Source of the DNA: a virus
Length of the DNA stretch: 64,000 bases
Strand: one strand, 5' to 3'
Virus record (IMG/VR): IMGVR_UViG_3300028840_005911
Coordinates: 64,001-128,000 of that record
The notes beneath the pieces are model-generated. The model worked only from the letters and a program-made list of their open reading frames with translations. It was not told the DNA's origin and made no database searches. A program made the position numbers and the translations under genes. Shown in pieces: positions 15,937-40,841 of this stretch; positions within the stretch are counted from its first letter, which is position 1; every line of letters begins with the position of its first letter.

Positions 15937-16782
15937 ATGGAAATGGCAGAACAAGCTCGGAGGGTAATTTCATGTGACGAGGGGGACCTCGAGTCAGTTG
16001 CAGAAGAGCTGGGTATCGATTTCGAGGTGGCCCAAAACACCAGAGAGTACTGGCGTGCGCGAATGGAGGGACGCTGTGTACTGTGTGGGACGGTATCCAA
16101 GACGGAGATGTGCAAGAAGTGTGCGCCAGATGGGGTAGAGCCCCTCGCAGAGTTCCCTGACATCCTCAAGGACATGAACGGGAACAGGACACTGATCTCC
16201 AAGACGTGCTCGGGGTGCAAGAAGACCAGGAATCTACGTGTGCGGTACGTCCTGGACATGCACGAAAAGTACGGATCCAAGTTCTTCAGGAACCCGAAGT
16301 GGCTATGCAAGGAGTGCTTCAGGAAGAAAGCGAAGGAACGGAACCTCAACCTCAAACACCAACCTTTCAAGTGTCTCGAAGGCAAAATAGCCGCGAAAAT
16401 GGAAAAAATCGAGGGCAATACTGGTATAAGAAAAGTGGAAGGAAAGTGCACCCTTAACACCCCCTCTGAGGAGGGGAAGGAGGAAGTCATGGCAGCAACC
16501 GCAACGAAAGCAAGTCCAGTGTCAGAACACTTCGAGGCCGCCCTCGAGAACCTCAAGTCGGACAACGACGAGGTCCGCAAGATGGCACGCGCCGAGTGCC
16601 GTCAGAGCCTGAACTACGTCGAGCAGGGCATGTCCCTGGCTCCGCGCCTCTGCCACAAGGCCGAGTTCAGCACCCCCATCGTGTCCGACATCATCTCGGT
16701 CGGCAAGCCCCTCGCCTACGCCGGCGGCATCTACGCGGGTGTCAAGGGCATCATGACCGTCGTCGAGTGGCTCCGCGCCTGA
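15937..16782 (+). CDS. Zn-finger protein in frame with a nested downstream gene
   Basis: Three CxxC pairs; no stop before internal promoter, SD and ATG at 16489. Confidence 0.55.
   Translation: MEMAEQARRVISCDEGDLESVAEELGIDFEVAQNTREYWRARMEGRCVLCGTVSKTEMCKKCAPDGVEPLAEFPDILKDMNGNRTLISKTCSGCKKTRNLRVRYVLDMHEKYGSKFFRNPKWLCKECFRKKAKERNLNLKHQPFKCLEGKIAAKMEKIEGNTGIRKVEGKCTLNTPSEEGKEEVMAATATKASPVSEHFEAALENLKSDNDEVRKMARAECRQSLNYVEQGMSLAPRLCHKAEFSTPIVSDIISVGKPLAYAGGIYAGVKGIMTVVEWLRA
16489..16782 (+). CDS. small, probably highly expressed hypothetical protein (nested start)
   Basis: Promoter motif at 16404-16430, SD GAAGGAGG, strongly C/G-ending codons, terminator 16820-16848. Confidence 0.6.
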   Translation: MAATATKASPVSEHFEAALENLKSDNDEVRKMARAECRQSLNYVEQGMSLAPRLCHKAEFSTPIVSDIISVGKPLAYAGGIYAGVKGIMTVVEWLRA

Positions 16783-16851
16783 CCCCCTCCTTCCCGGACA
16801 TCTCCGGAAAATCCCACTAAAGAGAGCCCACCAGCTCTCTTTTTAGCCTTC

Positions 16852-16879
16852 GAAAATACGAGCACCTTTCTGGTATAAG
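16852..16879 (+). promoter_or_regulatory. phage promoter motif
   Basis: GAAAAT-N16-TATAAG. Confidence 0.7.
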
Positions 16880-16974
16880 AACTATGGAGAGGTGACTTTC
16901 TCCTATGGGTGGGCGAGGAGCGGATCCACAACGGACCGCTCCTTTGCCTTACTATTCATCTTCCGGAGGGTACT

Positions 16975-17469
16975 ATGCGAGAATCTTGGGACCGATACTT
17001 CATGAACATCGCCGAGCTCGTATCTACGAGGGCGACCTGCGTGCGCAGGAAGGTCGGCGCGGTCATCGTAAGGGACAAGAACATTTTGGCGACAGGGTAT
17101 AATGGAGCTCCTCGAAGAGTGGAACACTGCACAGACGAGACCTGTCTTAGGCAGAAGCTCAACATCCCATCCGGTGAGAGGCATGAGATTTGCCGGGCCG
17201 TCCATGCCGAACAGAATGCCATCATCCAGGCCGCCCGCCATGGTGTAGCAGTCAATGGCGCGTCTTTGTACATCACAGTCTTCCCGTGCTCCATTTGCGC
17301 AAAGATGATCATCAACTCTGGGATCTCGAAGATCTACTTCGAAGGCGACTATGGAGATGCCAGGTCTACGAGCCAATCGTACGAATATCTCTGGCAGTAC
17401 AGCTCTTGTGAGCTTTACCGGGTTAAAGAGGACGGTACTACCGTACTGACGTTCCCGAAACCCAAGTAA
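16975..17469 (+). CDS. dCMP deaminase (ComEB-like)
   Basis: [52 protein letters not shown]. Confidence 0.93.
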
Positions 17470-17495
17470 AATCCGGCGTGGTCTTCCGATATAAG
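17467..17495 (+). promoter_or_regulatory. phage promoter motif
   Basis: TAAAAT-N17-TATAAG. Confidence 0.75.
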
Positions 17496-17574
17496 AACTA
17501 TGAACAGAAGGGCAGTGCAGCAAAACCGGGAAGGTAGGGCGCTGCAAAAGGTTACGCACCCAAAGGAGGATCAA

Positions 17575-18393
17575 ATGAAAGACTTCAGAGTGAAGGTGAG
17601 AGCCTACAATAATAGGTTGCTCGAGAGGCGGGAAAAGTTAGGACTATCTCAAAAGGCCTTGGCAGCGCAGGCTGGGATACCTGCCGGAGAGTACAACAAG
17701 TACGAGAATATGCGGAAGACGGCGTGGAACCCAAAAAAGAATAACTGGAGGCCGGATGCGGTTAAACTGGCTGCATTCCATGATGTATCCGAGTTCGATC
17801 TATTTCCCGAATCTCTCAAGATGATCGAAGCGCGTCCTGTGGAGATGGAGGTAGATGCCTGCGAGGTAGAGGCCTTGATGGGAGCCTCCATACCAACCCC
17901 ACATAAAGCTCTCGAATCTTCCGACCTGAACACAAAGGTCAGAGAAGTCATCTCTACACTCACCCCAAGAGAAGAAAAGGTAATCAGGGCACATTTCGGG
18001 ATAGGAGAGGATGAGCGGACATTTGAGGAGATCGGTGAAGAATTCGGTGTTGGCAGAAACAGAATACGTCAGATAGAGTGCAAAGCCCTTCGTAAACTAC
18101 GTCACCCACACCGGGCTAAACGTCTGATAGATTACTGTGAAGAAGGACCAGCGCCAAAGCCCAAAGAACCAAAACCTAGACCTCCTACTCCAAAAGAGCT
18201 GGCTCTAGAAAAGTTTCACGCATACGGACACAAAGAACGTAGTATGGGGTGGGCCTATCACTTCCGCTTCAGAAACTTCTATTTTCTGAAGTGCCGAACG
18301 TGCGGACGCAGGGCTTATGCAAAACGGAGAAATGGAAGGATGATGATCTTTGGGGAAGCCCTCAACGTCAAATGTGGTAAGTACCTTCCGTAA
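17575..18393 (+). CDS. XRE-HTH plus sigma70 region-4 HTH protein
   Basis: RREKLGLSQKALAAQAGI (XRE); LTPREEKVIRAHFGIG..RTFEEIGEEFGVGRNRIRQIECKALRKLRHP (sigma r4). Confidence 0.82.
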   Translation: MKDFRVKVRAYNNRLLERREKLGLSQKALAAQAGIPAGEYNKYENMRKTAWNPKKNNWRPDAVKLAAFHDVSEFDLFPESLKMIEARPVEMEVDACEVEALMGASIPTPHKALESSDLNTKVREVISTLTPREEKVIRAHFGIGEDERTFEEIGEEFGVGRNRIRQIECKALRKLRHPHRAKRLIDYCEEGPAPKPKEPKPRPPTPKELALEKFHAYGHKERSMGWAYHFRFRNFYFLKCRTCGRRAYAKRRNGRMMIFGEALNVKCGKYLP

Positions 18394-18395
18394 TC

Positions 18396-18490
18396 GGTGG
18401 ATAGCTTGAGAGTTTGTTGGTGGGTCGATTGGACTAGCGAACGGTTAGATGCTGGTTCGCTGGGAAGAGAGCCTTGTGCTCTCTTTTACC
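18396..18490 (+). ncRNA. (GNNN)n array A plus terminator hairpin
   Basis: G at 8/8 positions 18396-18424, then 11/13 at 18419-18467 after a 1-nt phase slip; hairpin GAAGAGAGC/GCTCTCTT. Confidence 0.65.
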
Positions 18491-18766
18491 TCAGAGCTGC
18501 GCCTTGAGGGTCGGTGAGGGCCGGAAGCCGACGGTCTTGGAGGCCTTGACCTTGATGATCTCGCCGGTCTGCGGATTGCGGCCCTTGCGGGCCTTGCGCT
18601 TGCGCAGATTGAAGACACCGAAGCCGGCGTAGCTGAAGCGGCCTTCCTTCTTCACCGTCTTGGTGATGGTGCTGAAGACGCTGTCCACGATATCGGTCGC
18701 GGCCTTGGTCGTCATCTCGTACCCCGCCGTCTTCTTGATCTGCTCGATGAATTCCTTCTTGGTCAT
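18491..18766 (-). CDS. hup: HU family DNA-binding protein
   Basis: MTKKEFIEQI..., GFGVFNLRKRKARKGRNPQTGEIIKVKASKTVGFRPS. Confidence 0.95.
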   Translation of the reverse strand: MTKKEFIEQIKKTAGYEMTTKAATDIVDSVFSTITKTVKKEGRFSYAGFGVFNLRKRKARKGRNPQTGEIIKVKASKTVGFRPSPTLKAQL

Positions 18767-18942
18767 GTCTGAACTCCTACAAAAGGGTTAAAGAAAACAC
18801 AGGCAGAATAAGCATAGTAGAGACAATAGTCAACAACTTTCGCCAAAATACGGCCATTATTGGAAATTCTGGGTGACAGTTTCGGTACAAGAATACTGAG
18901 GAGGAAATCCGCATTTTAACCAGCCGGGACTGGGAGAAAACC

Positions 18943-19326
18943 ATGAAGAAAGGAGTAGTCAAGATCGTAGAGGCTAAGGAGAAGTTTCCTGGAAAGGTTC
19001 CCGCAGTCGTGTACGCCGCACTGCTGGAACACAAAACAATGGCGGAGAATTTTGACTGGGCCGCTTGGCTCTACAATCCTATTCTTGGCTCGAGGTTCTT
19101 GCTGGACTCTGACGTAAACCGGCAGAACATCCTAAGAAGAACTGAGTACAACCCGTCATTCCACAAGTGGGGATATGTAGACGGGTCATGCGTCATAGTA
19201 CTAGGCGACTCAGAAGACTACGTTCTCACGACACTCGATTCTCTGCTTCCGCATGTAACGGTGCAAACACTGGACATCTGCGAGGAGAGGATGCTCATGA
19301 AACATCTGATGCGGCCGGGAGGCTAG
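18943..19326 (+). CDS. hypothetical phage protein
   Basis: Promoter variant GAAATT-N17-TACAAG at 18863-18891; terminator 19329-19358. Confidence 0.65.
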   Translation: MKKGVVKIVEAKEKFPGKVPAVVYAALLEHKTMAENFDWAAWLYNPILGSRFLLDSDVNRQNILRRTEYNPSFHKWGYVDGSCVIVLGDSEDYVLTTLDSLLPHVTVQTLDICEERMLMKHLMRPGG

Positions 19327-19360
19327 GAATAAAGGAGGCTCCGGCCTCCTTTATTACCTG

Positions 19361-19388
19361 TAAAATACTGGACTTTCTCAGGTATAAG
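19361..19388 (+). promoter_or_regulatory. phage promoter motif for RAMP-like gene
   Basis: TAAAAT-N16-TATAAG followed by SD AAGGAGGAGG. Confidence 0.78.
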
Positions 19389-19435
19389 AAAAATGTGAAG
19401 AGATCATCTTAACCACCACAAGGAGGAGGAATCAC

Positions 19436-20692
19436 ATGAACATCGATCTCAACATGTTCGAGAAGGACGAGAAGACGGGACTCTACATCATCGAGGACCA
19501 GGTAGTCCTCGGTATCATCCTGGTCTACGTCATCCAGAAGCTCGGACAGTGCAACGACAACCTGCTGCGGGATACCCTCCGTGACAAACTGGGCATCTAC
19601 GTACGCAAGTGGAAGACCGTCTTCCGCAACGCCCTCAACGCTCTCAAGAAGCTGGACCTCATCGCCATCAACCAGCTCCCCGGAGAGGGGGACGTACAGG
19701 AAGAGCACTACTCCCTGAAGAACGTGGAGTTCGCCTCCCCGCCGCATCTGGCCCACTTCAAGGACGTTCTTCCCAAACTGCTTGCAGACGGGACGTCCGC
19801 AGCTATCAAGGTGGCTTTCGACTCCGGGGAAGAAGCGGAGCCAGGGGAGACCACCAAGCCCAAGAGGGGAGCAAACATCAAAGAGAGCCACGTCTACTCA
19901 GTCCGGTTCGAGAGTGAGGAGAAGTTCCTTGCTGGTAGGTCAATCTGTCCGACCATGAGGGACGGCCTGGAGAAATCTCCGTACCAACCGAACATCGATG
20001 GCTATATCAAGCAGGAAGAAGAAGAGCCCAGGAAGACCAAGAAAAAGAAGGCGGCCGATAGGGCAGACGCTAAGATCGACCGCTTCTTCGAGCGAGCCAC
20101 TGACGGCGGGATCCTGATCCACGGTGGTATCACCAAGGGCATGTTCTGCTCTGCCATACCGCGCTTGTACGGCCTCGCCCCGGCAACCGCGAGGGACAAC
20201 GGCGGGTACCCGTCGATCATCGTCTACCCGAACAATCACGGTATCCAACTGACCACACTTCCGGTCCAGGCCTCCAACGGCAAGTCAGCCGCACCGCAAA
20301 CCTACGAGACAATCATGCCTGGAGAGGAGATCCTGCTCAGGTTCTGGGCCCCGACCAAAGGGTTCCTGGACGCGGACATCATCGTTGAGTATCTCGAGTT
20401 CATCGGCCTCTTCCCAAAACGCACCCTTTCGCCCGGTCGTGGCACCGAGACTGGGAAGATGAGGATGACTCACTTCGTTGACCATGGCCTTGTTCCGGAG
20501 ATATTCGAGAAGCGCAAGAAGAACAGGAAGAAGCTTCCCATAGATGCATACCTCGACTGGGAGTTCGAAAAGGAGACCGGGGTAACGCTCCAAAAAGTCG
20601 GCGGTGCCCCGAAGACTAAGAAGGCCCGCATGCGGGTCGACGGCAACAAGATGCTCCTCTTCAAGACGAAGGGAGACCAGGCTCAGGCGTAG
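19436..20692 (+). CDS. stand-alone Cas7/RAMP-superfamily protein with N-terminal winged-helix domain
   Basis: RAMP-order motifs: VYSVRFESEEKFLAG; FFERATDGGILIHGGITKGMFCSA; TLPVQASNGKSAAPQTYETIMPGEEILLRF; Gly loop LSPGRGTETGKMRM; residues about 20-95 wHTH-like. Confidence 0.72.
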   Translation: MNIDLNMFEKDEKTGLYIIEDQVVLGIILVYVIQKLGQCNDNLLRDTLRDKLGIYVRKWKTVFRNALNALKKLDLIAINQLPGEGDVQEEHYSLKNVEFASPPHLAHFKDVLPKLLADGTSAAIKVAFDSGEEAEPGETTKPKRGANIKESHVYSVRFESEEKFLAGRSICPTMRDGLEKSPYQPNIDGYIKQEEEEPRKTKKKKAADRADAKIDRFFERATDGGILIHGGITKGMFCSAIPRLYGLAPATARDNGGYPSIIVYPNNHGIQLTTLPVQASNGKSAAPQTYETIMPGEEILLRFWAPTKGFLDADIIVEYLEFIGLFPKRTLSPGRGTETGKMRMTHFVDHGLVPEIFEKRKKNRKKLPIDAYLDWEFEKETGVTLQKVGGAPKTKKARMRVDGNKMLLFKTKGDQAQA

Positions 20693-20757
20693 TTCCTCCC
20701 CCTGGGTGCGCCTGGAGAGAGGGTGGGTCGCGCATCACCCCACCCTCTCTTTAGCCG

Positions 20758-20786
20758 TAAATTTGACGACCCCTTTTGGGTATAAG
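20758..20786 (+). promoter_or_regulatory. phage promoter motif, preceded by terminator 20715-20753
   Basis: TAAATT-N17-TATAAG. Confidence 0.75.
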
Positions 20787-20830
20787 AATACTGGAGAAGG
20801 ACAACCTTATATCCATAGGAGGGGAAAGCC

Positions 20831-21193
20831 ATGGATCACGTCAGCAAGCACACCAAAGGAGTCATGAACTCAATCGCCAGGTTCGCTCTCAAGCACCAGG
20901 AGAGAAACGGAATCGAAACGAAGTGGGTCTCCAAGAGCAGGATCCACGTCGTGTTCGGGAAGGAGTTCGGGGTCGACCTGAACACCATCAACTGGACCGG
21001 TGAGATCTATAAGCTCAAGCGCCGCTACGGAAAGTCAATTCGAGAACGTCTCGAGTACATTGTCCCCGGGGCCGATCTCAAGTACGACTTCTACTACCAG
21101 CTGGCAAAGATGATCTGGAGAGATCGCTACAAGAGGAAATTGACGAAGACACCAGGGTCCTGTATCATCGACGATACGTCACACACTTCTTGA
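20831..21193 (+). CDS. hypothetical basic protein
   Basis: GGAGGGG SD. Confidence 0.7.
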   Translation: MDHVSKHTKGVMNSIARFALKHQERNGIETKWVSKSRIHVVFGKEFGVDLNTINWTGEIYKLKRRYGKSIRERLEYIVPGADLKYDFYYQLAKMIWRDRYKRKLTKTPGSCIIDDTSHTS

Positions 21194-21318
21194 CCGGTTT
21201 ACAGCATCCCTGTACCGGTCTACCAAAAATGACAGGTTCCTCCCGAGGGCTTCGCTGGGAGGGTCATTGAACGTGGTGAATGGGGGTCGCCCTCGCCCCC
21301 TAGTAACCGGAGGTCCTC

Positions 21319-21570
21319 ATGTACCAGCTGAAGAAGCACGTGAACCAGACCGTCCGCAAATTTCTTATATCCAAAGGGGCCTATATGCACCCGGAGGCGA
21401 TAAAGAAGCTGAAGAAGTTATCTGCAGACAGGCCGTACAACTACATCTACCAGATCAAGAGAAGATACCGGAAGATAGTGAGGAAGGCTCGCAAGAAATA
21501 CCCGAACATCGTCCACGACTGGATGGCAATCTATTACGCCTACAGGCTAGGGAGAGGAAGATGGACATAG
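21319..21570 (+). CDS. hypothetical basic protein
   Basis: GGAGG SD. Confidence 0.6.
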   Translation: MYQLKKHVNQTVRKFLISKGAYMHPEAIKKLKKLSADRPYNYIYQIKRRYRKIVRKARKKYPNIVHDWMAIYYAYRLGRGRWT

Positions 21571-22076
21571 AGAAGAAATTCTATCTGACACAGAGGATAG
21601 AGAAGCAGTGGAATGCTCCTCGGGACGATAAGGAAGGCGTCGACGCTTATTTCGCCTTCGACTACATGGGATCTTCAGAGTTCGAGTGGGGAGCGCTCCC
21701 TAAGGCTCTGCGAGACATGCGCAAGGGCTGGAAGGAAGAAGAGCCAGTCATTGTGAGGATCAACGCATACATCCCCCTGGATGATATTGAAGAAAAAGAT
21801 AATGGGGTCACCTGTCATGTCTGGTTTGTAGGCAATAGAGAAGACCTCGAGGACGCTACTGATTTCTTCAACGACCAACTCACTGATAGGAAGATCCGAA
21901 TCCATGAGAGGACCTGCATGTCACAGGCCTACGGTATCCCTGAGGGGCCATATGACAAGGCATCAAGCTTCTACGACAGGCTGATAGGGTGGTGGGCTCT
22001 GAATGGTCTGATATGTCTCTTCCGGGACGAGGAGGACGCAAAAATCTGGAAAAGGGAGGTTCTCAATGGACAATAA
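21561..22076 (+). CDS. hypothetical phage protein
   Basis: FDYMGSSEFEWGALPKAL motif; ATG at 21561. Confidence 0.65.
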   Translation: MDIEKKFYLTQRIEKQWNAPRDDKEGVDAYFAFDYMGSSEFEWGALPKALRDMRKGWKEEEPVIVRINAYIPLDDIEEKDNGVTCHVWFVGNREDLEDATDFFNDQLTDRKIRIHERTCMSQAYGIPEGPYDKASSFYDRLIGWWALNGLICLFRDEEDAKIWKREVLNGQ

Positions 22077-22105
22077 GAAACGTACTGCAAGAGCTGGAGC
22101 TTGCA

Positions 22106-22133
22106 TAAAATCTAGCTGTGAATACGGTATAAG
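22106..22133 (+). promoter_or_regulatory. phage promoter motif
   Basis: TAAAAT-N16-TATAAG. Confidence 0.75.
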
Positions 22134-22196
22134 GATACTGTAGGAGATCGTTAGGTCTCCATGTTACAATCTCAGCTTCACAAGGAGGGAAATCCC

Positions 22197-22952
22197 ATGG
22201 GTAAGATGCACGAACTGCTGGCAGTCGAGTCAGACCGCGAGGCGGTCTTCAAGAAGGTCGTCACCGAGGCCGGCGATACGTTCCGTAAACGCTCCGACCA
22301 CTTCCTCGGGCACCACAAGACGCTCGAGATGAAGGAAGAGGGCAAGGAGATGGCAGAGGCCGCTGCCGAAGACCACAAGGCCATGGTCACGACTGTCGGC
22401 AAGAAGCTCGACTACGTCTCCAACCCGGTCGTCACATACCTGGACGCGGTCCTGCAGAAGGAATGCACCAACCAGGTGGCGAAAGCCGATCTCGTTCTTC
22501 CGGACGGCACCGTGCTCGGCAAAGACCTGCCGGCCACCTTCTTGCTAGGGCTCGAGTCCAAGCTCAAGTTCCTCCGTCAGATGTACGAGAACATCCCGAC
22601 CTTGTCCCCTGGGACAGAGTGGGTCGCAGATGATCAGATGGGCGAAGGGGTCTACAAGTCCAAGCATCTCGAGACCAAGGCCAAGACGGAGACGACTGTC
22701 GAACACAAGGTCATCGTCGAAGCCACCGAGCACCACCCGGCCCAGATCGGCGAGGCATCCATCACCGAGGTCGTCGGTGTCTTCAAGACCAAGCACTGGA
22801 GCGGGATGATCTCTCCTGCCCGGAAGTCGGAGCTCCTGGGACGGTTGGACGTACTCATGCAGGCCGCCAAGCAAGCAAGGATGAGGGCCAACTCAGCGGA
22901 CACCATCGACAGGAAGATCGGCAAGGAGCTGGTGGACTACATCAACGCATAG
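22197..22952 (+). CDS. uncharacterised helical/coiled-coil protein (LLAVE...PATFLLGLE...EATEHHPAQ...WSGMIS family)
   Basis: AAGGAGG SD, strong codon bias; lies directly upstream of the tRNA-like RNA. Confidence 0.75.
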   Translation: MGKMHELLAVESDREAVFKKVVTEAGDTFRKRSDHFLGHHKTLEMKEEGKEMAEAAAEDHKAMVTTVGKKLDYVSNPVVTYLDAVLQKECTNQVAKADLVLPDGTVLGKDLPATFLLGLESKLKFLRQMYENIPTLSPGTEWVADDQMGEGVYKSKHLETKAKTETTVEHKVIVEATEHHPAQIGEASITEVVGVFKTKHWSGMISPARKSELLGRLDVLMQAAKQARMRANSADTIDRKIGKELVDYINA

Positions 22953-23125
22953 GAGAACAGAGGTTTGACAAGTGGGTCAGCATTGGTGTTCCTGAAGCGG
23001 AGTCCCGGTTTGACACCCGGAACAAGGCCCGCAGACAGGGGTACTGAGCTTCAGAGTGAGCGTCAGCTTATCGAACCCACAGCGTCAATAGCCGTAATAC
23101 AACCCTGATGAGGATCTTCTGGCAT

Positions 23126-23228
23126 GAACCACAATCACCGTGGTCGCAGGTTCAAGTCCTGCCATCCCCTCCAACCTATGGGGATGTAGCTCAGTGGTAA
23201 GAGCGACGGGTCGTTGTTGTAACGGTTC
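23126..23228 (+). ncRNA. circularly permuted tRNA-like RNA (YrlA/Y-RNA-like tRNA mimic)
   Basis: T arm GCAGG-TTCAAGT-CCTGC (23146-62), then CATCCCC-TCCA, a loop, GGGGATG (23180-86), then D arm GCTC-AGTGGTAA-GAGC; ACGG pairs with upstream CCGT; no anticodon loop. Confidence 0.78.
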
Positions 23229-23329
23229 TTGGGTAGATGATTCCAAGGGTGGCGGCGCTGGGTGACTGGGAGACGATGTGTATCTATGGAGATTTGGCAC
23301 GTCAATGTCTTCCAGTCACTCCATCATTA

Positions 23330-23373
23330 GGGCCGGGAGGCCGCAAATAGCCGGCCTCCCGGCCCTCTCTTTT
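23330..23373 (+). terminator. intrinsic terminator
   Basis: AGGGCCGGGAGGCCG/CCGGCCTCCCGGCCCT stem followed by CTCTTTT. Confidence 0.75.
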
Positions 23374-23482
23374 GAGGAGATTTAATGGGCGATCCAATGT
23401 TCGGGTACATGGTAGGCTCACTGATCGTTATCGTGCTCGTGGTTGTGATCTTCTCCTGTACTCCAGATAGGAGGAGGAAACG

Positions 23483-23776
23483 ATGAGAGAACCAATAGAC
23501 TACGACGGATACATGTGGGATCGAGACCCAGAGGCCGTAGAGGAACACAAAGAGCTCGAGCCCGCACTGGAGGTACTCGACGCCTTCATCTCGGACTGGG
23601 TCGAGCCGTGCTACAATTTCCTGGACTTCCAACGAGAGGCTCTGGTAACAATCGAAGCCTACATCAAATTCCTCGAGGGCCCAAACATGGCAGAAGGCGA
23701 TCTGAAGGCACTCAGGGAGAGGTTCCGAAATGAGCGAGAAAGAAGCCAAGAAGAGAGAGCTCCTGAACAGGGCTGA
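23483..23776 (+). CDS. hypothetical phage protein
   Basis: GGAGGAGG SD. Confidence 0.6.
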   Translation: MREPIDYDGYMWDRDPEAVEEHKELEPALEVLDAFISDWVEPCYNFLDFQREALVTIEAYIKFLEGPNMAEGDLKALRERFRNERERSQEERAPEQG

Positions 23777-23930
23777 GAATACCCTAACGGAGCTCATGGA
23801 TGTTGTCGAGAAGGACAGCAAGAAGATCCTCACGATGGATACCATCAACGGGGTCCGCAAGCTCCGGACATATCTCGTCGGCGGACATTACACGCCGTTT
23901 CTTGGCATAAAAGATCGAACAGGCCAGTAG
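23730..23930 (+). CDS. hypothetical phage protein
   Basis: ORF track. Confidence 0.55.
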   Translation: MSEKEAKKRELLNRAENTLTELMDVVEKDSKKILTMDTINGVRKLRTYLVGGHYTPFLGIKDRTGQ

Positions 23931-24001
23931 CTCAATTGGTAGAGCACCCGCAATCTGAAACATGCGGGAGGTTTGGGGTTCAAGTCCTTGCTGGCCTACC
24001 A
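23921..24001 (+). tRNA. atypical tRNA-Phe(GAA)-like gene with extended anticodon arm
   Basis: AGGCCAG/CTGGCCT-A-CCA acceptor, canonical D arm, CCCGCAAT-CTGAAAC-ATGCGGG anticodon arm (22 nt instead of 17), G-U-rich T stem with TTCAAGT. Confidence 0.68.
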
Positions 24002-24133
24002 GTTCCGGGCCATAGTGGTCCGGTGAAGCTTCTAGGATGGCCCCTGGAGCTTCAAGGCCCTGGGCGCGGGGAAGGAAAAGGATTCCTCCTTTTGGGTGCT
24101 CCCCGCGCCCGGGCAATCTCTCAAGGAGCGCCG

Positions 24134-24394
24134 ATGCACAAATTTAAGTGTCCCCACTGTGGAGACGATTCCTATATCTGCCGCAACGAGACGGTGTACC
24201 TACAGACGCCGGTGAAACCAACAGACACCTCATGGACATACGACGAGGACAGGATGGCATTTGACGGGGCGATCCTGTGGGATACCTGCGGACGGTACGA
24301 TCTCGATGACCAGGAATTCAAGTGTGTGAACTGCCTGACCGACTTCGACTGGTCCATCATCGACGGGCCAACGAACGTCGTTCTACCTGACTAG
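24134..24394 (+). CDS. small Zn-ribbon protein
   Basis: FKCPHCG...FKCVNC; AAGGAG SD. Confidence 0.6.
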   Translation: MHKFKCPHCGDDSYICRNETVYLQTPVKPTDTSWTYDEDRMAFDGAILWDTCGRYDLDDQEFKCVNCLTDFDWSIIDGPTNVVLPD

Positions 24395-24402
24395 GAACAA
24401 CA

Positions 24403-24642
24403 ATGAAATGCCAAAGATGTGAAAGCGAGAGGATCCTGAAATTCTCCGGGAAGACCTCTGACCTCTTTTCCTGCTACTACATGGGCAAAGAGCACCAAGG
24501 GTATGTGCCGAAAGGCATCGGTATCAACGATAAGTACAGGGACTATCTACAAGGACGTCTGTGCATGGAGTGCGGACAAGTCCAAGGAGAATTCCCCGTA
24601 CCCGGGCCAGACATCGAAGACGATGAAGAAGAGGAGTTGTAA
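24403..24642 (+). CDS. small Zn-finger protein
   Basis: MKCQRCES...LCMECGQVQG. Confidence 0.65.
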   Translation: MKCQRCESERILKFSGKTSDLFSCYYMGKEHQGYVPKGIGINDKYRDYLQGRLCMECGQVQGEFPVPGPDIEDDEEEEL

Positions 24643-24643
24643 C

Positions 24644-25027
24644 ATGTTCGAAGAGCTGACCTTCAAGAAAGAGGAAGTCCTCAATAGGCTGAAGATCAAT
24701 CGCGAGGAGCATCTGAAGATCGTACGCGAAGCCCAGGAGGGTTACCGGGAGCAGTACGAGAAGCTCCTGGTCAAGACCCTCGATGATCTCCGGTCCGGGA
24801 AAGAGGTTCCTAACCACGTAGGTCTGACAGTCCCGTCGAACCACGTGGATGATTATGACCGTGCTATCGAGATGCTCGAGATGTGCACCGAGAAAGAGAT
24901 CATCCTCGACGAGAACCAGTTCCAGGAGCTCATGCGTAACAAGTGGAACTGGATGAGCGGGTTCCTGGTCAGCAACGCTGGTTACAGCGCCACTGCCCAC
25001 AACATCACCACGACAGCCGACGTGTAA
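24644..25027 (+). CDS. hypothetical helical phage protein
   Basis: GAGGAG SD; HVDDYDRAIEMLEM motif. Confidence 0.7.
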   Translation: MFEELTFKKEEVLNRLKINREEHLKIVREAQEGYREQYEKLLVKTLDDLRSGKEVPNHVGLTVPSNHVDDYDRAIEMLEMCTEKEIILDENQFQELMRNKWNWMSGFLVSNAGYSATAHNITTTADV

Positions 25028-25052
25028 AATACTGAAATCATTCGGTTATAAG
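25025..25052 (+). promoter_or_regulatory. phage promoter motif driving an ncRNA
   Basis: TAAAAT-N16-TATAAG with no ORF before the next terminator. Confidence 0.75.
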
Positions 25053-25059
25053 AACTTCG

Positions 25060-25268
25060 AGGAGAAGTTTACACACCTGGTCCCCTCACTCCCCTCCGAG
25101 GGGACCAAACTCCTACACCTTGGGCCTGCCGGCAGGTATCCCTCCCCCTCCTGCCGGCAGGCCCCTTCAAAAACTGGATGTTAGGTGGAACTGCCGTGCG
25201 CATGTCCGGGAGTCCGTAGGAATGGGTAGGTGAGGTAAGAAGGGGAGCCCTGTTCCTCTTCTTTTAGC
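25060..25268 (+). ncRNA. ncRNA: two hairpins with C-rich loops, (GNNN)n array I, terminator
   Basis: TGGTCCCCTC/GAGGGGACCA and GGGCCTGCCGGCAG/CTGCCGGCAGGCCC stems; G at 13/15 in-phase positions 25176-25232. Confidence 0.72.
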
Positions 25269-25338
25269 CCATGAATTCTAAGGTCTTCTTGCGGTATAAG
25301 GATACTGAGGAAGAACCTTAGCACCACAGGAGGAAGCC

Positions 25339-25683
25339 ATGAAATATCTTGAGAGAGCGGCGATAAGCCTGCAATCTGTTCTACACAAAGGGAGCACCGA
25401 TCTCGAGAAGATCGGCATCTTGCTGGCCAACATCCATACCATCATCGATCTGTGGATCCCCATCGGCCGGGCTGTTCAGATCATGGGTCGGGAGCGTTCG
25501 GCCCCGGTTCTGCGCTCGAGGGCCGAGAAGCTCATCAGGGATATCCGTAGAGAGGACGAGGATGCCGTCAGAGAGGATATCTCGGTCATAGAGGACATAG
25601 TATACCAGTACACCGGAAAACGTCCCGTAGGGGGCAAGGAGTACGCTAGCAGGGAGACTATCCAGTTTGTCGACGCCCCCTGA
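25339..25683 (+). CDS. hypothetical phage protein
   Basis: Promoter TGAATT-N17-TATAAG at 25272-25300; GGAGG SD. Confidence 0.65.
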   Translation: MKYLERAAISLQSVLHKGSTDLEKIGILLANIHTIIDLWIPIGRAVQIMGRERSAPVLRSRAEKLIRDIRREDEDAVREDISVIEDIVYQYTGKRPVGGKEYASRETIQFVDAP

Positions 25684-25813
25684 GTCTGATACACTGGCCT
25701 CGGCCCTGCCGGATAGTTCATCCATGTGAGCTCCTACCAAGTCCAGCAGGGTCATTTATTTTGGAGAAGGAAATGGACAGACCAACATACAGGAGCAGAA
25801 GAAGAGTGGACTG

Positions 25814-26032
25814 GTGGCTATCACCACCGGTCTGTTCATCGACAGGGCATCTTCACGAAAACAGATAGAGGAGGCATGGCCCAGCCTCTGCAAGGATCTC
25901 GGGCTGGTTGATGACAAAACCGGGACGAACACGTACACCATTCAGGGGTTCGATCTCTACAAGTGGGTTGAGGAGAAGCACCAAGAGAAGTTCAACTCTG
26001 AGCCGGACCCTGTACCAAAACCCCATTCTTGA
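25814..26032 (+). CDS. hypothetical phage protein
   Basis: ORF track. Confidence 0.5.
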   Translation: MAITTGLFIDRASSRKQIEEAWPSLCKDLGLVDDKTGTNTYTIQGFDLYKWVEEKHQEKFNSEPDPVPKPHS

Positions 26033-26160
26033 CATGCGCGATCACCTCTTTGCAGTGATCACAGACAATGCACACATATCCGTCAATGACCTGAACGGAG
26101 AGGATATGGAACATGTGTTTCTCGAGATCCATTTCTAGATTGTAGCACAGGAGCAAAGTT

Positions 26161-26409
26161 ATGGGAGATTTGTCAGACGACCTCCGCGAGATGGGTATAG
26201 CCGAGGAAGGTATACCCCAGACGGAGATGATCTGTGAAATATTCGCACCGGTGATTGACGAGCTCATCGAACATCGCCTCGACGCGGCTACTACTGAAAA
26301 AGAGAAGAGGAATGCTCCCTACGATGTGAGGGACTACCTGTTCCGTCTGATAACCGCGATAGCCACTCAGAAAAAATACATCAGGAGGGCAAACGAATGG
26401 AAAGAGTAA
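26161..26409 (+). CDS. hypothetical phage protein
   Basis: AGGAG SD. Confidence 0.6.
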   Translation: MGDLSDDLREMGIAEEGIPQTEMICEIFAPVIDELIEHRLDAATTEKEKRNAPYDVRDYLFRLITAIATQKKYIRRANEWKE

Positions 26410-26639
26410 GCGCGTGGGTCATCGTCTGCGGGACTGGCGCCTTATACCCTATAGGGTCAGGTGGAGGGAAGGCCGCCTACATCCACAAAGAGGTCGCCGA
26501 GGATGTAATGATGGCCATCGCTGATCACGATAAGGCCTACGTCAAAGGTCGCGGAGGTCTTCACCTCGAAGAAATAACTGCAGAGGCCGGCCTGTTCAAG
26601 CAGCTAGGCCTCAATCTTGTCACGCAGGAGAAAGAGTAA
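26397..26639 (+). CDS. hypothetical phage protein
   Basis: GGAGGG SD. Confidence 0.55.
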   Translation: MERVSAWVIVCGTGALYPIGSGGGKAAYIHKEVAEDVMMAIADHDKAYVKGRGGLHLEEITAEAGLFKQLGLNLVTQEKE

Positions 26640-26881
26640 TGGCCTACGTAGTCGGACTTCTCACAGATGAGGAGATGGAGATTCTCGAAGAGCGCGGATG
26701 GGATTTCGAGGAACCTCCCGCAGAGCTCAAGCTGGGGAGGTGTCCCCCGGGAAAGGTCCAGAAGATGGTCTGGGTCGACAGTGATATGTTCGAGATCATC
26801 GGCCCCTGGGAAGACAGGTCGTTCAGTGACGGTCCTCCCTACGATGCCGCAACTGCTACGGGGATGTACGACCGGTACTAA
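26639..26881 (+). CDS. hypothetical acidic phage protein
   Basis: TAATG overlap. Confidence 0.6.
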   Translation: MAYVVGLLTDEEMEILEERGWDFEEPPAELKLGRCPPGKVQKMVWVDSDMFEIIGPWEDRSFSDGPPYDAATATGMYDRY

Positions 26882-26900
26882 ACACGGCCGGTTGAATGGC

Positions 26901-27068
26901 GATAGATTGAATGAGTTACTGATAGTTTGCGAGGGAGTTGGGAAGGACGGAGTCTGGAAAGCAGTGAGGAAAGGGCGGAAGGTTGTTCGATCTCACGAGG
27001 GATAGGCAGCCAGTGGGCCTGTGGGGAGGAGCGAACGGAAAAGAGACTGATCTGGTCTCTTTTCTTAC
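26901..27068 (+). ncRNA. (GNNN)n array B plus terminator hairpin
   Basis: G at 31/35 in-phase positions 26901-27037; off-phase G 28/105; hairpin GAAAAGAGAC/GTCTCTTTTC-TTAC. Confidence 0.8.
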
Positions 27069-40765: not shown

Positions 40766-40841
40766 GGATCGGTAGTTCAGCTGGTAGAACGCTGGTCTGT
40801 TAAACCAGAAGTCCGAGGTTCAAGTCCTCGCCGATCCGCCA
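40766..40841 (+). tRNA. trnN: tRNA-Asn(GTT)
   Basis: 76-nt cloverleaf: GGATCGG/CCGATCC-G-CCA, CTGGT-CTGTTAA-ACCAG, CGAGG-TTCAAGT-CCTCG. Confidence 0.95.

What the first reader, a model, noticed from the sequence alone, without database searches (positions are those of the whole stretch)
19436..20692. Stand-alone winged-helix plus Cas7-like RAMP gene with its own strong expression unit
Residues about 150-350 show RAMP motifs in the right order: beta1 VYSVRFESEEKFLAG, FFERATDGGILIHGGITKGMFCSA (compare R..G.P.IPGSSLKG), thumb TLPVQASNGKSAAPQTYETIMPGEEILLRF, and Gly loop LSPGRGTETGKMRM. An N-terminal wHTH-like region (LLRDTLRDKLG..WKTVFRNALNALKKLDLI) is not typical of CRISPR Cas7. The gene has its own promoter, SD AAGGAGGAGG, a terminator and highly biased codons, consistent with a high-copy filament subunit. 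The wHTH could bind the displaced strand or contact RNA polymerase (inference).
Basis: partly seen in the sequence, partly recalled or inferred. Interest (0 to 1): 0.88.

Follow-up and report, generated by a model that had tools for sequence, protein, structure and literature searches.

The report
Phage RAMP protein with GNNN RNAs
A large phage encodes a protein that joins a DNA-binding winged helix to a CRISPR Cas7-like RNA-binding domain. It sits among non-coding tracts with G at every fourth base, so it is most likely a new four-base version of the recently described phage VIPR RNA-guided silencing systems, which use five-base repeats.

Summary

Seven intergenic (GNNN)n tracts lie on the same strand at 18.4-32.2 kb. 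G fills 89% of in-phase positions and the other three positions are nearly random. Five tracts score 14 or more, against none in 30 random genomes. Similar tracts flank distant homologues, strongly in two loci and moderately in two; the rest show little or none.

The closest known system is VIPR (2026 preprints): a phage RAMP filament on guide RNAs built from five-base repeats. No period-4 form or winged-helix fusion appears in the papers I searched, nor among eight earlier VIPR findings of this scan.

Stop triplets are depleted in the NNN positions, which hints that each unit reads one codon. No target was found, and RNA expression and binding are untested.

Verdict: a new variant of a known kind.

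The parts
19360..19388 (+). Phage-specific promoter-like motif GTAAAATAC-N12-GGTATAAG upstream of the gene
   Evidence: The full motif matches 2 times in the window, 0 in 100 shuffles. GKTATAAG occurs 17 times against 1.3 expected. Function as a promoter is inferred.
19420..19429 (+). Shine-Dalgarno sequence AAGGAGGAGG, 6 nt before the ATG
   Evidence: Read directly in the sequence.
19436..20692 (+). CDS of the 418-aa winged-helix plus Cas7-like RAMP protein (P0001)
   Evidence: 88 representative homologues at E<=1e-3, mostly 340-450 aa, match over the full length.
19469..19744 (+). PadR-type winged helix-turn-helix domain (residues 12-103), followed by two helices up to residue 132
19880..20521 (+). 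Cas7-like RAMP domain (residues 149-362)
20243..20314 (+). Beta-hairpin 'thumb' (residues 270-293)
   Evidence: Model strands 270-278 and 284-293. P276 is nearly invariant and E291 invariant. The hairpin lies in the predicted subunit-subunit interface. Calling it the thumb is an inference from its position in the fold.
20426..20458 (+). Glycine-rich loop (residues 331-341, SPxRG...G)
   Evidence: S332, P333, R335 and G336 are nearly invariant and G340 is invariant. It is a loop between helix 313-325 and strand 342-352.
20712..20754 (+). Hairpin after the stop codon (terminator-like, purine arm and pyrimidine arm)
   Evidence: -28.3 kcal/mol, z -5.3. The simple terminator scan does not call it, because no U-run follows.
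18396..18471 (+). (GNNN)n tract A, about 20 units with one phase slip, then a 3' hairpin
25176..25227 (+). (GNNN)n tract B, 13 units (12 of 13 G), with its own promoter-like motif at 25045-25052 and a 3' hairpin
26901..27040 (+). (GNNN)n tract C, 35 units (31 G), with a 3' hairpin
   Evidence: Score 21 against a shuffled maximum of 12. Hairpin z -4.4.
29610..29701 (+). (GNNN)n tract D, 23 units (21 G), with a 3' hairpin
30563..30678 (+). (GNNN)n tract E, 29 units (25 G)
30909..31160 (+). (GNNN)n tract F, 63 units (54 G), the longest
   Evidence: Score 31.5 against a shuffled maximum of 13. Autocorrelation peaks at lags 4, 8 and 12.
31997..32190 (+). (GNNN)n tract G: 10 units, a 2-nt slip, then 39 units (36 G), with a 3' hairpin
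   Evidence: Hairpin z -3.4.

Best explanation
The gene encodes the protein part of a VIPR-like, phage-borne RNA-guided system that uses a four-base rather than a five-base repeat code. Shown: the protein has an N-terminal PadR-type winged helix and a C-terminal Cas7-like RAMP domain. It is encoded alone, without cas genes. Its genome carries seven same-strand intergenic tracts with G at every fourth base and nearly random bases in between, six of them followed by a predicted stable 3' hairpin. Similar tracts flank some distant homologues. Inferred, by analogy with the cryo-EM work on Vipr: RAMP domains polymerise head to tail along a (GNNN)n transcript, one protomer per four-base unit. The glycine loop and thumb would sequester the G and display the three variable bases for pairing with a target, most likely the DNA of a competing phage or other mobile element, whose transcription would then be blocked. 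The fused winged helix would supply double-stranded DNA contact or dimerisation, the job done by separate WH-like Vap proteins in some VIPR types. A hint only: stop triplets are depleted in the variable positions in both orientations. This suggests each NNN matches an in-frame codon of a coding target, that is, four RNA bases read three DNA bases.
Against: There is no evidence here that the tracts are expressed as discrete RNAs or that the protein binds them. No target was found: the own genome under skip rules 0-3 scores no better than shuffled guides. Six exact pattern scans of viral, metagenome and genome collections gave nothing. Co-occurrence is partial: L002/L003, L011, L013 and L015 show no period-4 tract above chance, and L012 looks mixed between periods 4 and 5. 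No tract directly adjoins the gene in this window; the nearest are about 1 kb upstream and 4.5 kb downstream. Several tracts start just after a stop codon, so they could be 3' UTR elements. The 3' hairpins are the same type as those after ordinary genes, so they may be plain terminators rather than guide 'tails'. Tract lengths of 13-63 units exceed the 9-16 repeats reported for vrRNAs. There is no detectable sequence similarity to the two SUSP1 VIPR-locus proteins. The stop-triplet depletion is not significant in the homologue tracts (7 against 9.2 and 7 against 9.1).
Confidence: 0.6

Rival explanations
1. The protein binds the (GNNN)n tracts, but these are not guides. They would be 3' UTR or stand-alone RNA elements that the RAMP filament coats to stabilise, terminate, sequester or time the expression of the neighbouring early or accessory genes. 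The winged helix would tie this to DNA or to self-association.
For: Several tracts begin right after the stop codon of an upstream gene and end in the ordinary terminator-type hairpin. Tract lengths vary widely, from 13 to 63 units. No target was found.
Against: A purely structural binding site would not need near-random, non-repeating NNN using 59 of 64 triplets. The specific depletion of stop triplets in both orientations is hard to explain without a coding-sequence partner. The closest known systems with this anatomy are guides.
Confidence: 0.17
2. The protein is a PadR-type transcription factor whose C-terminal RAMP-like domain is a sensor or oligomerisation module. The GNNN tracts are unrelated to it and belong to another partner or to DNA-level function.
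For: The winged helix is conserved family-wide and PadR proteins are DNA-binding repressors. Some homologue loci show no clear tracts.
Against: The RAMP domain keeps the RNA-binding landmarks, a conserved glycine loop and a thumb hairpin. Period-4 tracts are enriched on the gene's strand in several distant homologue loci, 5 against 0.35 expected at a score of 11 or more. In this 192-kb genome all strong tracts lie within 1 to 12 kb of the gene.
Confidence: 0.1
3. The protein is an anti-CRISPR decoy: a phage copy of a type III Cas7 subunit that poisons host Csm or Cmr complexes or soaks up crRNA.
For: The best solved-structure matches are type III Csm3 and Cmr4. Phages are known to carry Cas-derived inhibitors (my own knowledge, not tested here).
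Against: Identity to Csm3 is only 10-15%, too low for a recently captured subunit. The nearest predicted-structure neighbours are viral stand-alone RAMPs, not cellular Cas7. This reading does not explain the family-wide winged-helix fusion or the GNNN tracts.
Confidence: 0.05

Closest known systems
VIPR systems (Vipr protein plus vrRNA plus vap), e.g. type II of Escherichia phage SUSP1; bioRxiv 10.64898/2026.04.26.720920, 10.64898/2026.04.26.720927, 10.64898/2026.10.15.759431
   Same: Both are phage-encoded. Both have a single RAMP-fold protein with an RRM core, thumb and glycine loop, and no cas operon or CRISPR array. Both have intergenic same-strand tracts of very short tandem units, in which a fixed G-containing position alternates with hypervariable bases and a structured 3' end follows. 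A head-to-tail oligomer is predicted here. WH-like DNA-binding partners are known in some VIPR types.
   Different: The repeat period is 4 (G/NNN), not 5 (GGY/NN, NNNGG, YNNNG, NNNNG). That leaves three variable bases per unit instead of two. The protein has 418 aa with a fused N-terminal PadR-type winged helix, against about 20 kDa for Vipr with a separate vap gene. The tracts are longer (13-63 units against 9-16) and are spread over 14 kb among accessory genes rather than flanking the gene. There is no detectable sequence similarity to the two proteins of the SUSP1 VIPR locus.
CRISPR type III backbone subunits Csm3 / Cmr4 (Cas7 family), also type VII Cas7 and Cas7-11 domains
   Different: There are no Cas10, Csm2/4/5, Cas6 or CRISPR array nearby. 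Identity is 10-15%. The position after beta1, where Csm3 carries its catalytic aspartate, shows no conserved acidic residue among close homologues (I did not compute structural equivalence). Cas7 filaments bind 6-nt units, not 4-nt units.
PadR family winged-helix regulators (Pex, LmrR)
   Different: No Pfam PadR hit reaches threshold. The domain is fused to a RAMP domain, which is not described for PadR proteins in anything I searched.

Membership tests
VIPR (Vipr plus vrRNA) | A single small RAMP-fold protein with RRM core, thumb and glycine loop | tested here: met
VIPR (Vipr plus vrRNA) | Viral or proviral minimal locus without cas genes or a CRISPR array | tested here: met
   The window holds phage genes such as a UvsX-like recombinase, dCMP deaminase, a sigma-like factor and HU. 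No cas-type Pfam family appears among the neighbours in 10 homologue loci.
VIPR (Vipr plus vrRNA) | Guide RNAs built from tandem pentanucleotide units (GGY/NN or a related 5-mer) | tested here: not met
   The period is 4, not 5. G at period 4 gives 62 window positions with at least 11 of 12, and G at period 5 gives 0. The genome has no period-5 tract above noise. The same detector finds the period-5 vrRNAs of SUSP1.
VIPR (Vipr plus vrRNA) | A fixed motif alternating with hypervariable bases, on the gene's strand, in intergenic DNA near the gene | tested here: met
   G is 89% in phase, the other positions are near-uniform, and 59 of 64 triplets are used. All strong tracts are on the + strand within 1-12 kb of the gene. 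The same holds in L001, L007, L005 and L014.
VIPR (Vipr plus vrRNA) | A conserved structured 3' tail on each guide | tested here: inconclusive
   Six of the seven tracts fold into a stable purine-arm/pyrimidine-arm hairpin at the 3' end; the stretch folded after tract E gave no clear hairpin (z 0.59). The same hairpin type follows ordinary genes, so it may be only a terminator. L010 shows a dedicated hairpin with a conserved loop.
VIPR (Vipr plus vrRNA) | The RNAs are expressed and co-purify with the protein, and they direct DNA binding through the variable bases | not testable with these tools
No target was found.
VIPR (Vipr plus vrRNA) | Placement in the Vipr clade rather than among the CRISPR RAMPs | tested here: inconclusive
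   hhalign of the family profile against the two SUSP1 VIPR-locus proteins gave nothing. The published Vipr sets were not available. The nearest predicted-structure clusters are viral.
CRISPR type III Cas7 (Csm3/Cmr4) | Encoded in a cas operon with Cas10 and the other Csm/Cmr subunits, next to a CRISPR array | tested here: not met
   None of these is present in the window or in any homologue locus.
CRISPR type III Cas7 (Csm3/Cmr4) | Matches the curated RAMP sequence family (Pfam PF03787) | tested here: not met
   No Pfam hit for P0001 or for any of 62 family members. The only sequence-level signal is a weak profile match to Csm5 at E 0.013.
PadR family | Winged helix-turn-helix with a following helix, and a match to the PadR Pfam model | tested here: inconclusive

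The most novel reading that the evidence does not exclude
This is a second, distinct punctuated code for RNA-guided recognition. A winged-helix-RAMP fusion protein polymerises on (GNNN)n RNA, hides one G per protomer and presents three bases, so that four RNA bases read one full codon of a contiguous, in-frame DNA target on either strand. The family would then be a separate branch of VIPR-like systems, with the DNA-binding accessory domain built into the effector.
Probability: 0.3. Interest if true: 0.9.

Novelty: new variant of a known kind. Interest (0 to 1): 0.78.

Why it matters
VIPR was described only in 2026, as an RNA-guided DNA recognition system older than CRISPR that uses a gapped five-base code. 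Every published type, a language-model survey of 376 million intergenic regions, and eight earlier VIPR findings of this scan report a 5-nt period. A family that pairs a Cas7-like protein with a 4-nt code of three programmable bases per protomer would show that the repeat code itself evolves. It would give a denser and possibly gapless guide for engineering. It would also supply a natural effector with a fused DNA-binding domain. The predictions can be tested directly: RNA pull-down, reporter repression with targets of 0-3 skipped bases, and cryo-EM.

Tried and rejected
- Single-sequence searches of P0001 against Pfam, PHROGs and PDB gave nothing. tblastn against 50,697 phage records gave no match.
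- The single-sequence AlphaFold2 model was unusable (pLDDT 40).
- The word-index homologue search, with the single protein and with the profile, returned only 2-3 proteins.
- The search for related loci failed or found no relatives in viral contigs and metagenomes.
- hhalign of the family profile against the two proteins of the SUSP1 VIPR locus gave no similarity.
- Target search in the phage's own genome: NNN triplets joined with 0, 1, 2 or 3 skipped bases scored no better than shuffled guides.
- Target search in public collections: exact pattern scans of 8-9 units under the 0-skip and 1-skip rules gave 0 matches in viral contigs, metagenome contigs and genome contigs. These scans need perfect matches and tested only two guide segments, so they say little.
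- I did not run BLAST with the joined NNN strings against the phage or plasmid collections, because those strings have no reference.
- Rfam has no family on any tract.
- The paper's supplementary lists of Vipr proteins are not held, so I could not check whether this family is already in the published set.
- A canonical period-5 VIPR elsewhere in the genome is rejected: there is no period-5 tract above noise.
- The claim of highly biased codons holds only moderately.

Full report
**The observation**

The ORF at 19436-20692 (+) encodes 418 aa. A Shine-Dalgarno sequence, AAGGAGGAGG, lies at 19420-19429. Upstream, at 19360-19388, is the motif GTAAAATAC-N12-GGTATAAG. The full motif matches twice in the window and never in 100 shuffles. 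Its GKTATAAG part occurs 17 times against 1.3 expected, and 13 of these are on the + strand between 16.4 and 31.2 kb. It therefore looks like this phage's own promoter type. A strong hairpin follows the stop codon at 20712-20754 (-28.3 kcal/mol, z -5.3). Codon bias is moderate, not extreme (ENC 43.9 against a median of 49.0).

The window belongs to a 192-kb virus record. Nearby genes include a UvsX/RecA-like gene, a dCMP deaminase, an HTH plus sigma-70 region 4 protein, HU and a DUF7873 protein.

**What the protein is**

Single-sequence searches were blank. An exhaustive HMMER search of 1.84 billion representatives found 88 relatives at E<=1e-3. Most are 340-450 aa and match over the full length. 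In an alignment of 62 of them, both halves are conserved: Q34, G37 and E104 in the N-terminal half, and P276, E291, G296, P306, S332, P333, R335, G336 and G340 in the C-terminal half.

A profile of this alignment weakly matches PadR/LmrR (E 0.002) and Csm5 (E 0.013) in the PDB. With the alignment, AlphaFold2 gave a confident model (pLDDT 85.4).

- Foldseek against the PDB lists type III Csm3/Cmr4, type VII Cas7 and Cas7-11 chains (E down to 9.5e-7, probability 1.0).
- In BFVD and the ESM Atlas, the nearest neighbours of the RAMP domain are viral stand-alone proteins of about 190-300 aa. One is named a RAMP superfamily protein. A cellular PF03787 cluster comes after them.

A prediction with three copies of residues 143-385 gave a head-to-tail interface that involves the thumb, the glycine loop and beta1. 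The score was 0.62 against a best control of 0.00. 20 of 30 solved pairs and 1 of 23 single chains reached that mark. The runs agreed in at least 81% of contacts, and the partner's pLDDT was at least 77. This pass may reflect the model's memory of solved Csm3 filaments. It shows likeness, not binding.

**Surroundings**

I tested the claim.

- G at period 4 gives 62 window positions with at least 11 of 12 in-phase G. Other bases at period 4 give 0-1, and G at periods 3 and 5 gives 0.
- In the whole genome, every strong tract lies at window 18.4-32.2 kb on the + strand.
- Five tracts score 14 or more, against none in 30 Markov-1 random genomes. Each long tract far exceeds shuffles of itself.
- G fills 89% of in-phase positions. 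The other three positions are near-uniform, and 59 of 64 triplets occur.
- Six of the seven tracts are followed by a stable hairpin with a purine arm and a pyrimidine arm; the stretch folded after tract E gave none (z 0.59). The same hairpin type follows ordinary genes.
- Rfam matches none of the tracts.

**Related loci**

All look like large phages, and none has a cas-type family nearby. The gene is typically followed or preceded by a non-coding gap of 0.25-1.5 kb.

In 137 kb of non-redundant loci, 16 period-4 G tracts score 9 or more against 4.05 expected, and 5 score 11 or more against 0.35. The opposite strand has 2. The tracts have 9-58 units and lie in intergenic gaps on the gene's strand. 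In L001 and L007 they sit directly beside the gene, and they also occur in L005/L006 and L014.

The link is not universal. L002/L003, L011, L013 and L015 show nothing above chance. L012 looks mixed between periods 4 and 5. L010 has a different array: at least 8 units of about 150 nt, each ending in a hairpin with a conserved 13-nt loop and covarying stems.

**Comparison with what is known**

A paper search led to the VIPR preprints. Vipr is a phage RAMP of about 20 kDa. It polymerises one protomer per five-base repeat of a vrRNA (GGY/NN, 9-16 repeats, structured 3' tail). It hides GGY and presents NN to double-stranded DNA, skipping one target base that usually falls on the codon wobble position. 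This silences competing phages and satellites. Some types have WH-like Vap accessory proteins.

All seven published types use pentanucleotide units. A language-model survey of intergenic DNA found periodic clusters at 60-79, 18 and 5 nt, with a few at 10, 8 and 7, and none at 4. The term GNNN occurs in none of the listed papers from 2024 onward that hold the companion search terms. The eight earlier VIPR findings of this scan that were listed are all described as five-base-period systems. My tract detector recovers the four published SUSP1 vrRNAs at period 5 and finds no period-4 tract there. This genome has no period-5 array.

The present locus therefore shares the anatomy of VIPR but fails one of its defining features, the five-base unit. 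It also adds a fused winged helix.

**Mechanism**

Shown:
- the two folds;
- the stand-alone phage context;
- the reality, strand and clustering of the tracts;
- their partial co-occurrence with the family.

Inferred by analogy:
- filament assembly with one protomer per four bases;
- sequestration of the G by the conserved SPxRG loop and the thumb;
- display of NNN for target pairing;
- transcriptional interference with a competitor;
- DNA contact or dimerisation through the winged helix.

There is one new hint about the code. In the window's 208 in-phase units, TAA/TAG/TGA occur 5 times against 13.1 expected (P 0.002). Their reverse complements occur 2 times against 7.6 expected (P 0.01). Control triplets that share the same dinucleotides are not depleted. 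This is what in-frame codons of coding targets on either strand would give. It points to a DNA period of 3 (or 6). The effect is weaker and not significant in the homologue tracts, so it remains a hint.

**What is missing**

Nothing here shows that the tracts are expressed as RNA or that the protein binds them. No target was found in the phage's own genome or in six exact scans of public collections. I could not place the family relative to published Vipr proteins.

**Verdict**

The best explanation is a VIPR-like system with a tetranucleotide guide code and a built-in winged helix (confidence about 0.6). It is a new variant of a kind first described in 2026.

Noticed in passing
L010:2695-4211: Downstream of a 30%-identical homologue (P0008) lies a 1.5-kb non-coding array of at least 8 units, spaced about 118-323 nt (about 150 nt in the regular part). 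Each unit ends in a hairpin with a conserved loop (GGCCGTGATGGTG) and stems that differ but stay complementary. Period-4 G signal in it is only weak (P 0.015). It may be a different guide architecture of the same family.
   Followed up: partly
L012:4160-4450: After another homologue (P0013), a G-rich non-coding stretch begins with about 12 units of period 4. It then shows G at every fifth base (15 of 18 and 16 of 19 units). The repeat period may vary within the family, or this may be noise in 47%-G sequence.
   Followed up: partly
window 23921-23998 (+): Rfam tRNA model match at 50.8 bits (gathering score 29) that ARAGORN did not report. ARAGORN found only tRNA-Asn at 40766-40841.
   Followed up: no
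window 23122-23235 (+): YrlA (Y RNA-like) match at 37.2 bits, below the gathering score of 69 (E 3.7e-5). A weak Twister-sister match overlaps it.
   Followed up: no
window 16400-31250 (+): Thirteen + strand copies of GKTATAAG (against 1.3 expected on both strands), often preceded by GTAAAATAC and a hairpin with a purine arm and a pyrimidine arm ending in TTAC or TTAG. This is a modular terminator-promoter cassette that separates small accessory genes and the GNNN tracts.
   Followed up: partly
window 25060-25170 (+): Between a promoter-like motif and tract B lie two GC-rich hairpins whose loops are C-rich (CTCCCCTCC-like). I saw them by eye in the sequence and did not analyse them.
   Followed up: no
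window 17500-18393 (+): A 297-aa protein joins an XRE-type HTH (HTH_3) to sigma-70 region 4. It may be the phage factor that reads the GGTATAAG promoters. GNNN tract A starts 3 nt after its stop codon.
   Followed up: no
window 20831-21193 and 21319-21570 (+): Two small basic ORFs just downstream of the gene share a K-R-R-Y-rich stretch by eye. They could be paralogous nucleic-acid-binding proteins and are candidate accessory genes.
   Followed up: no
window 22161-22952 (+): A 263-aa protein matches Pfam DUF7873 at E 8e-68. Its function is unknown.
   Followed up: no
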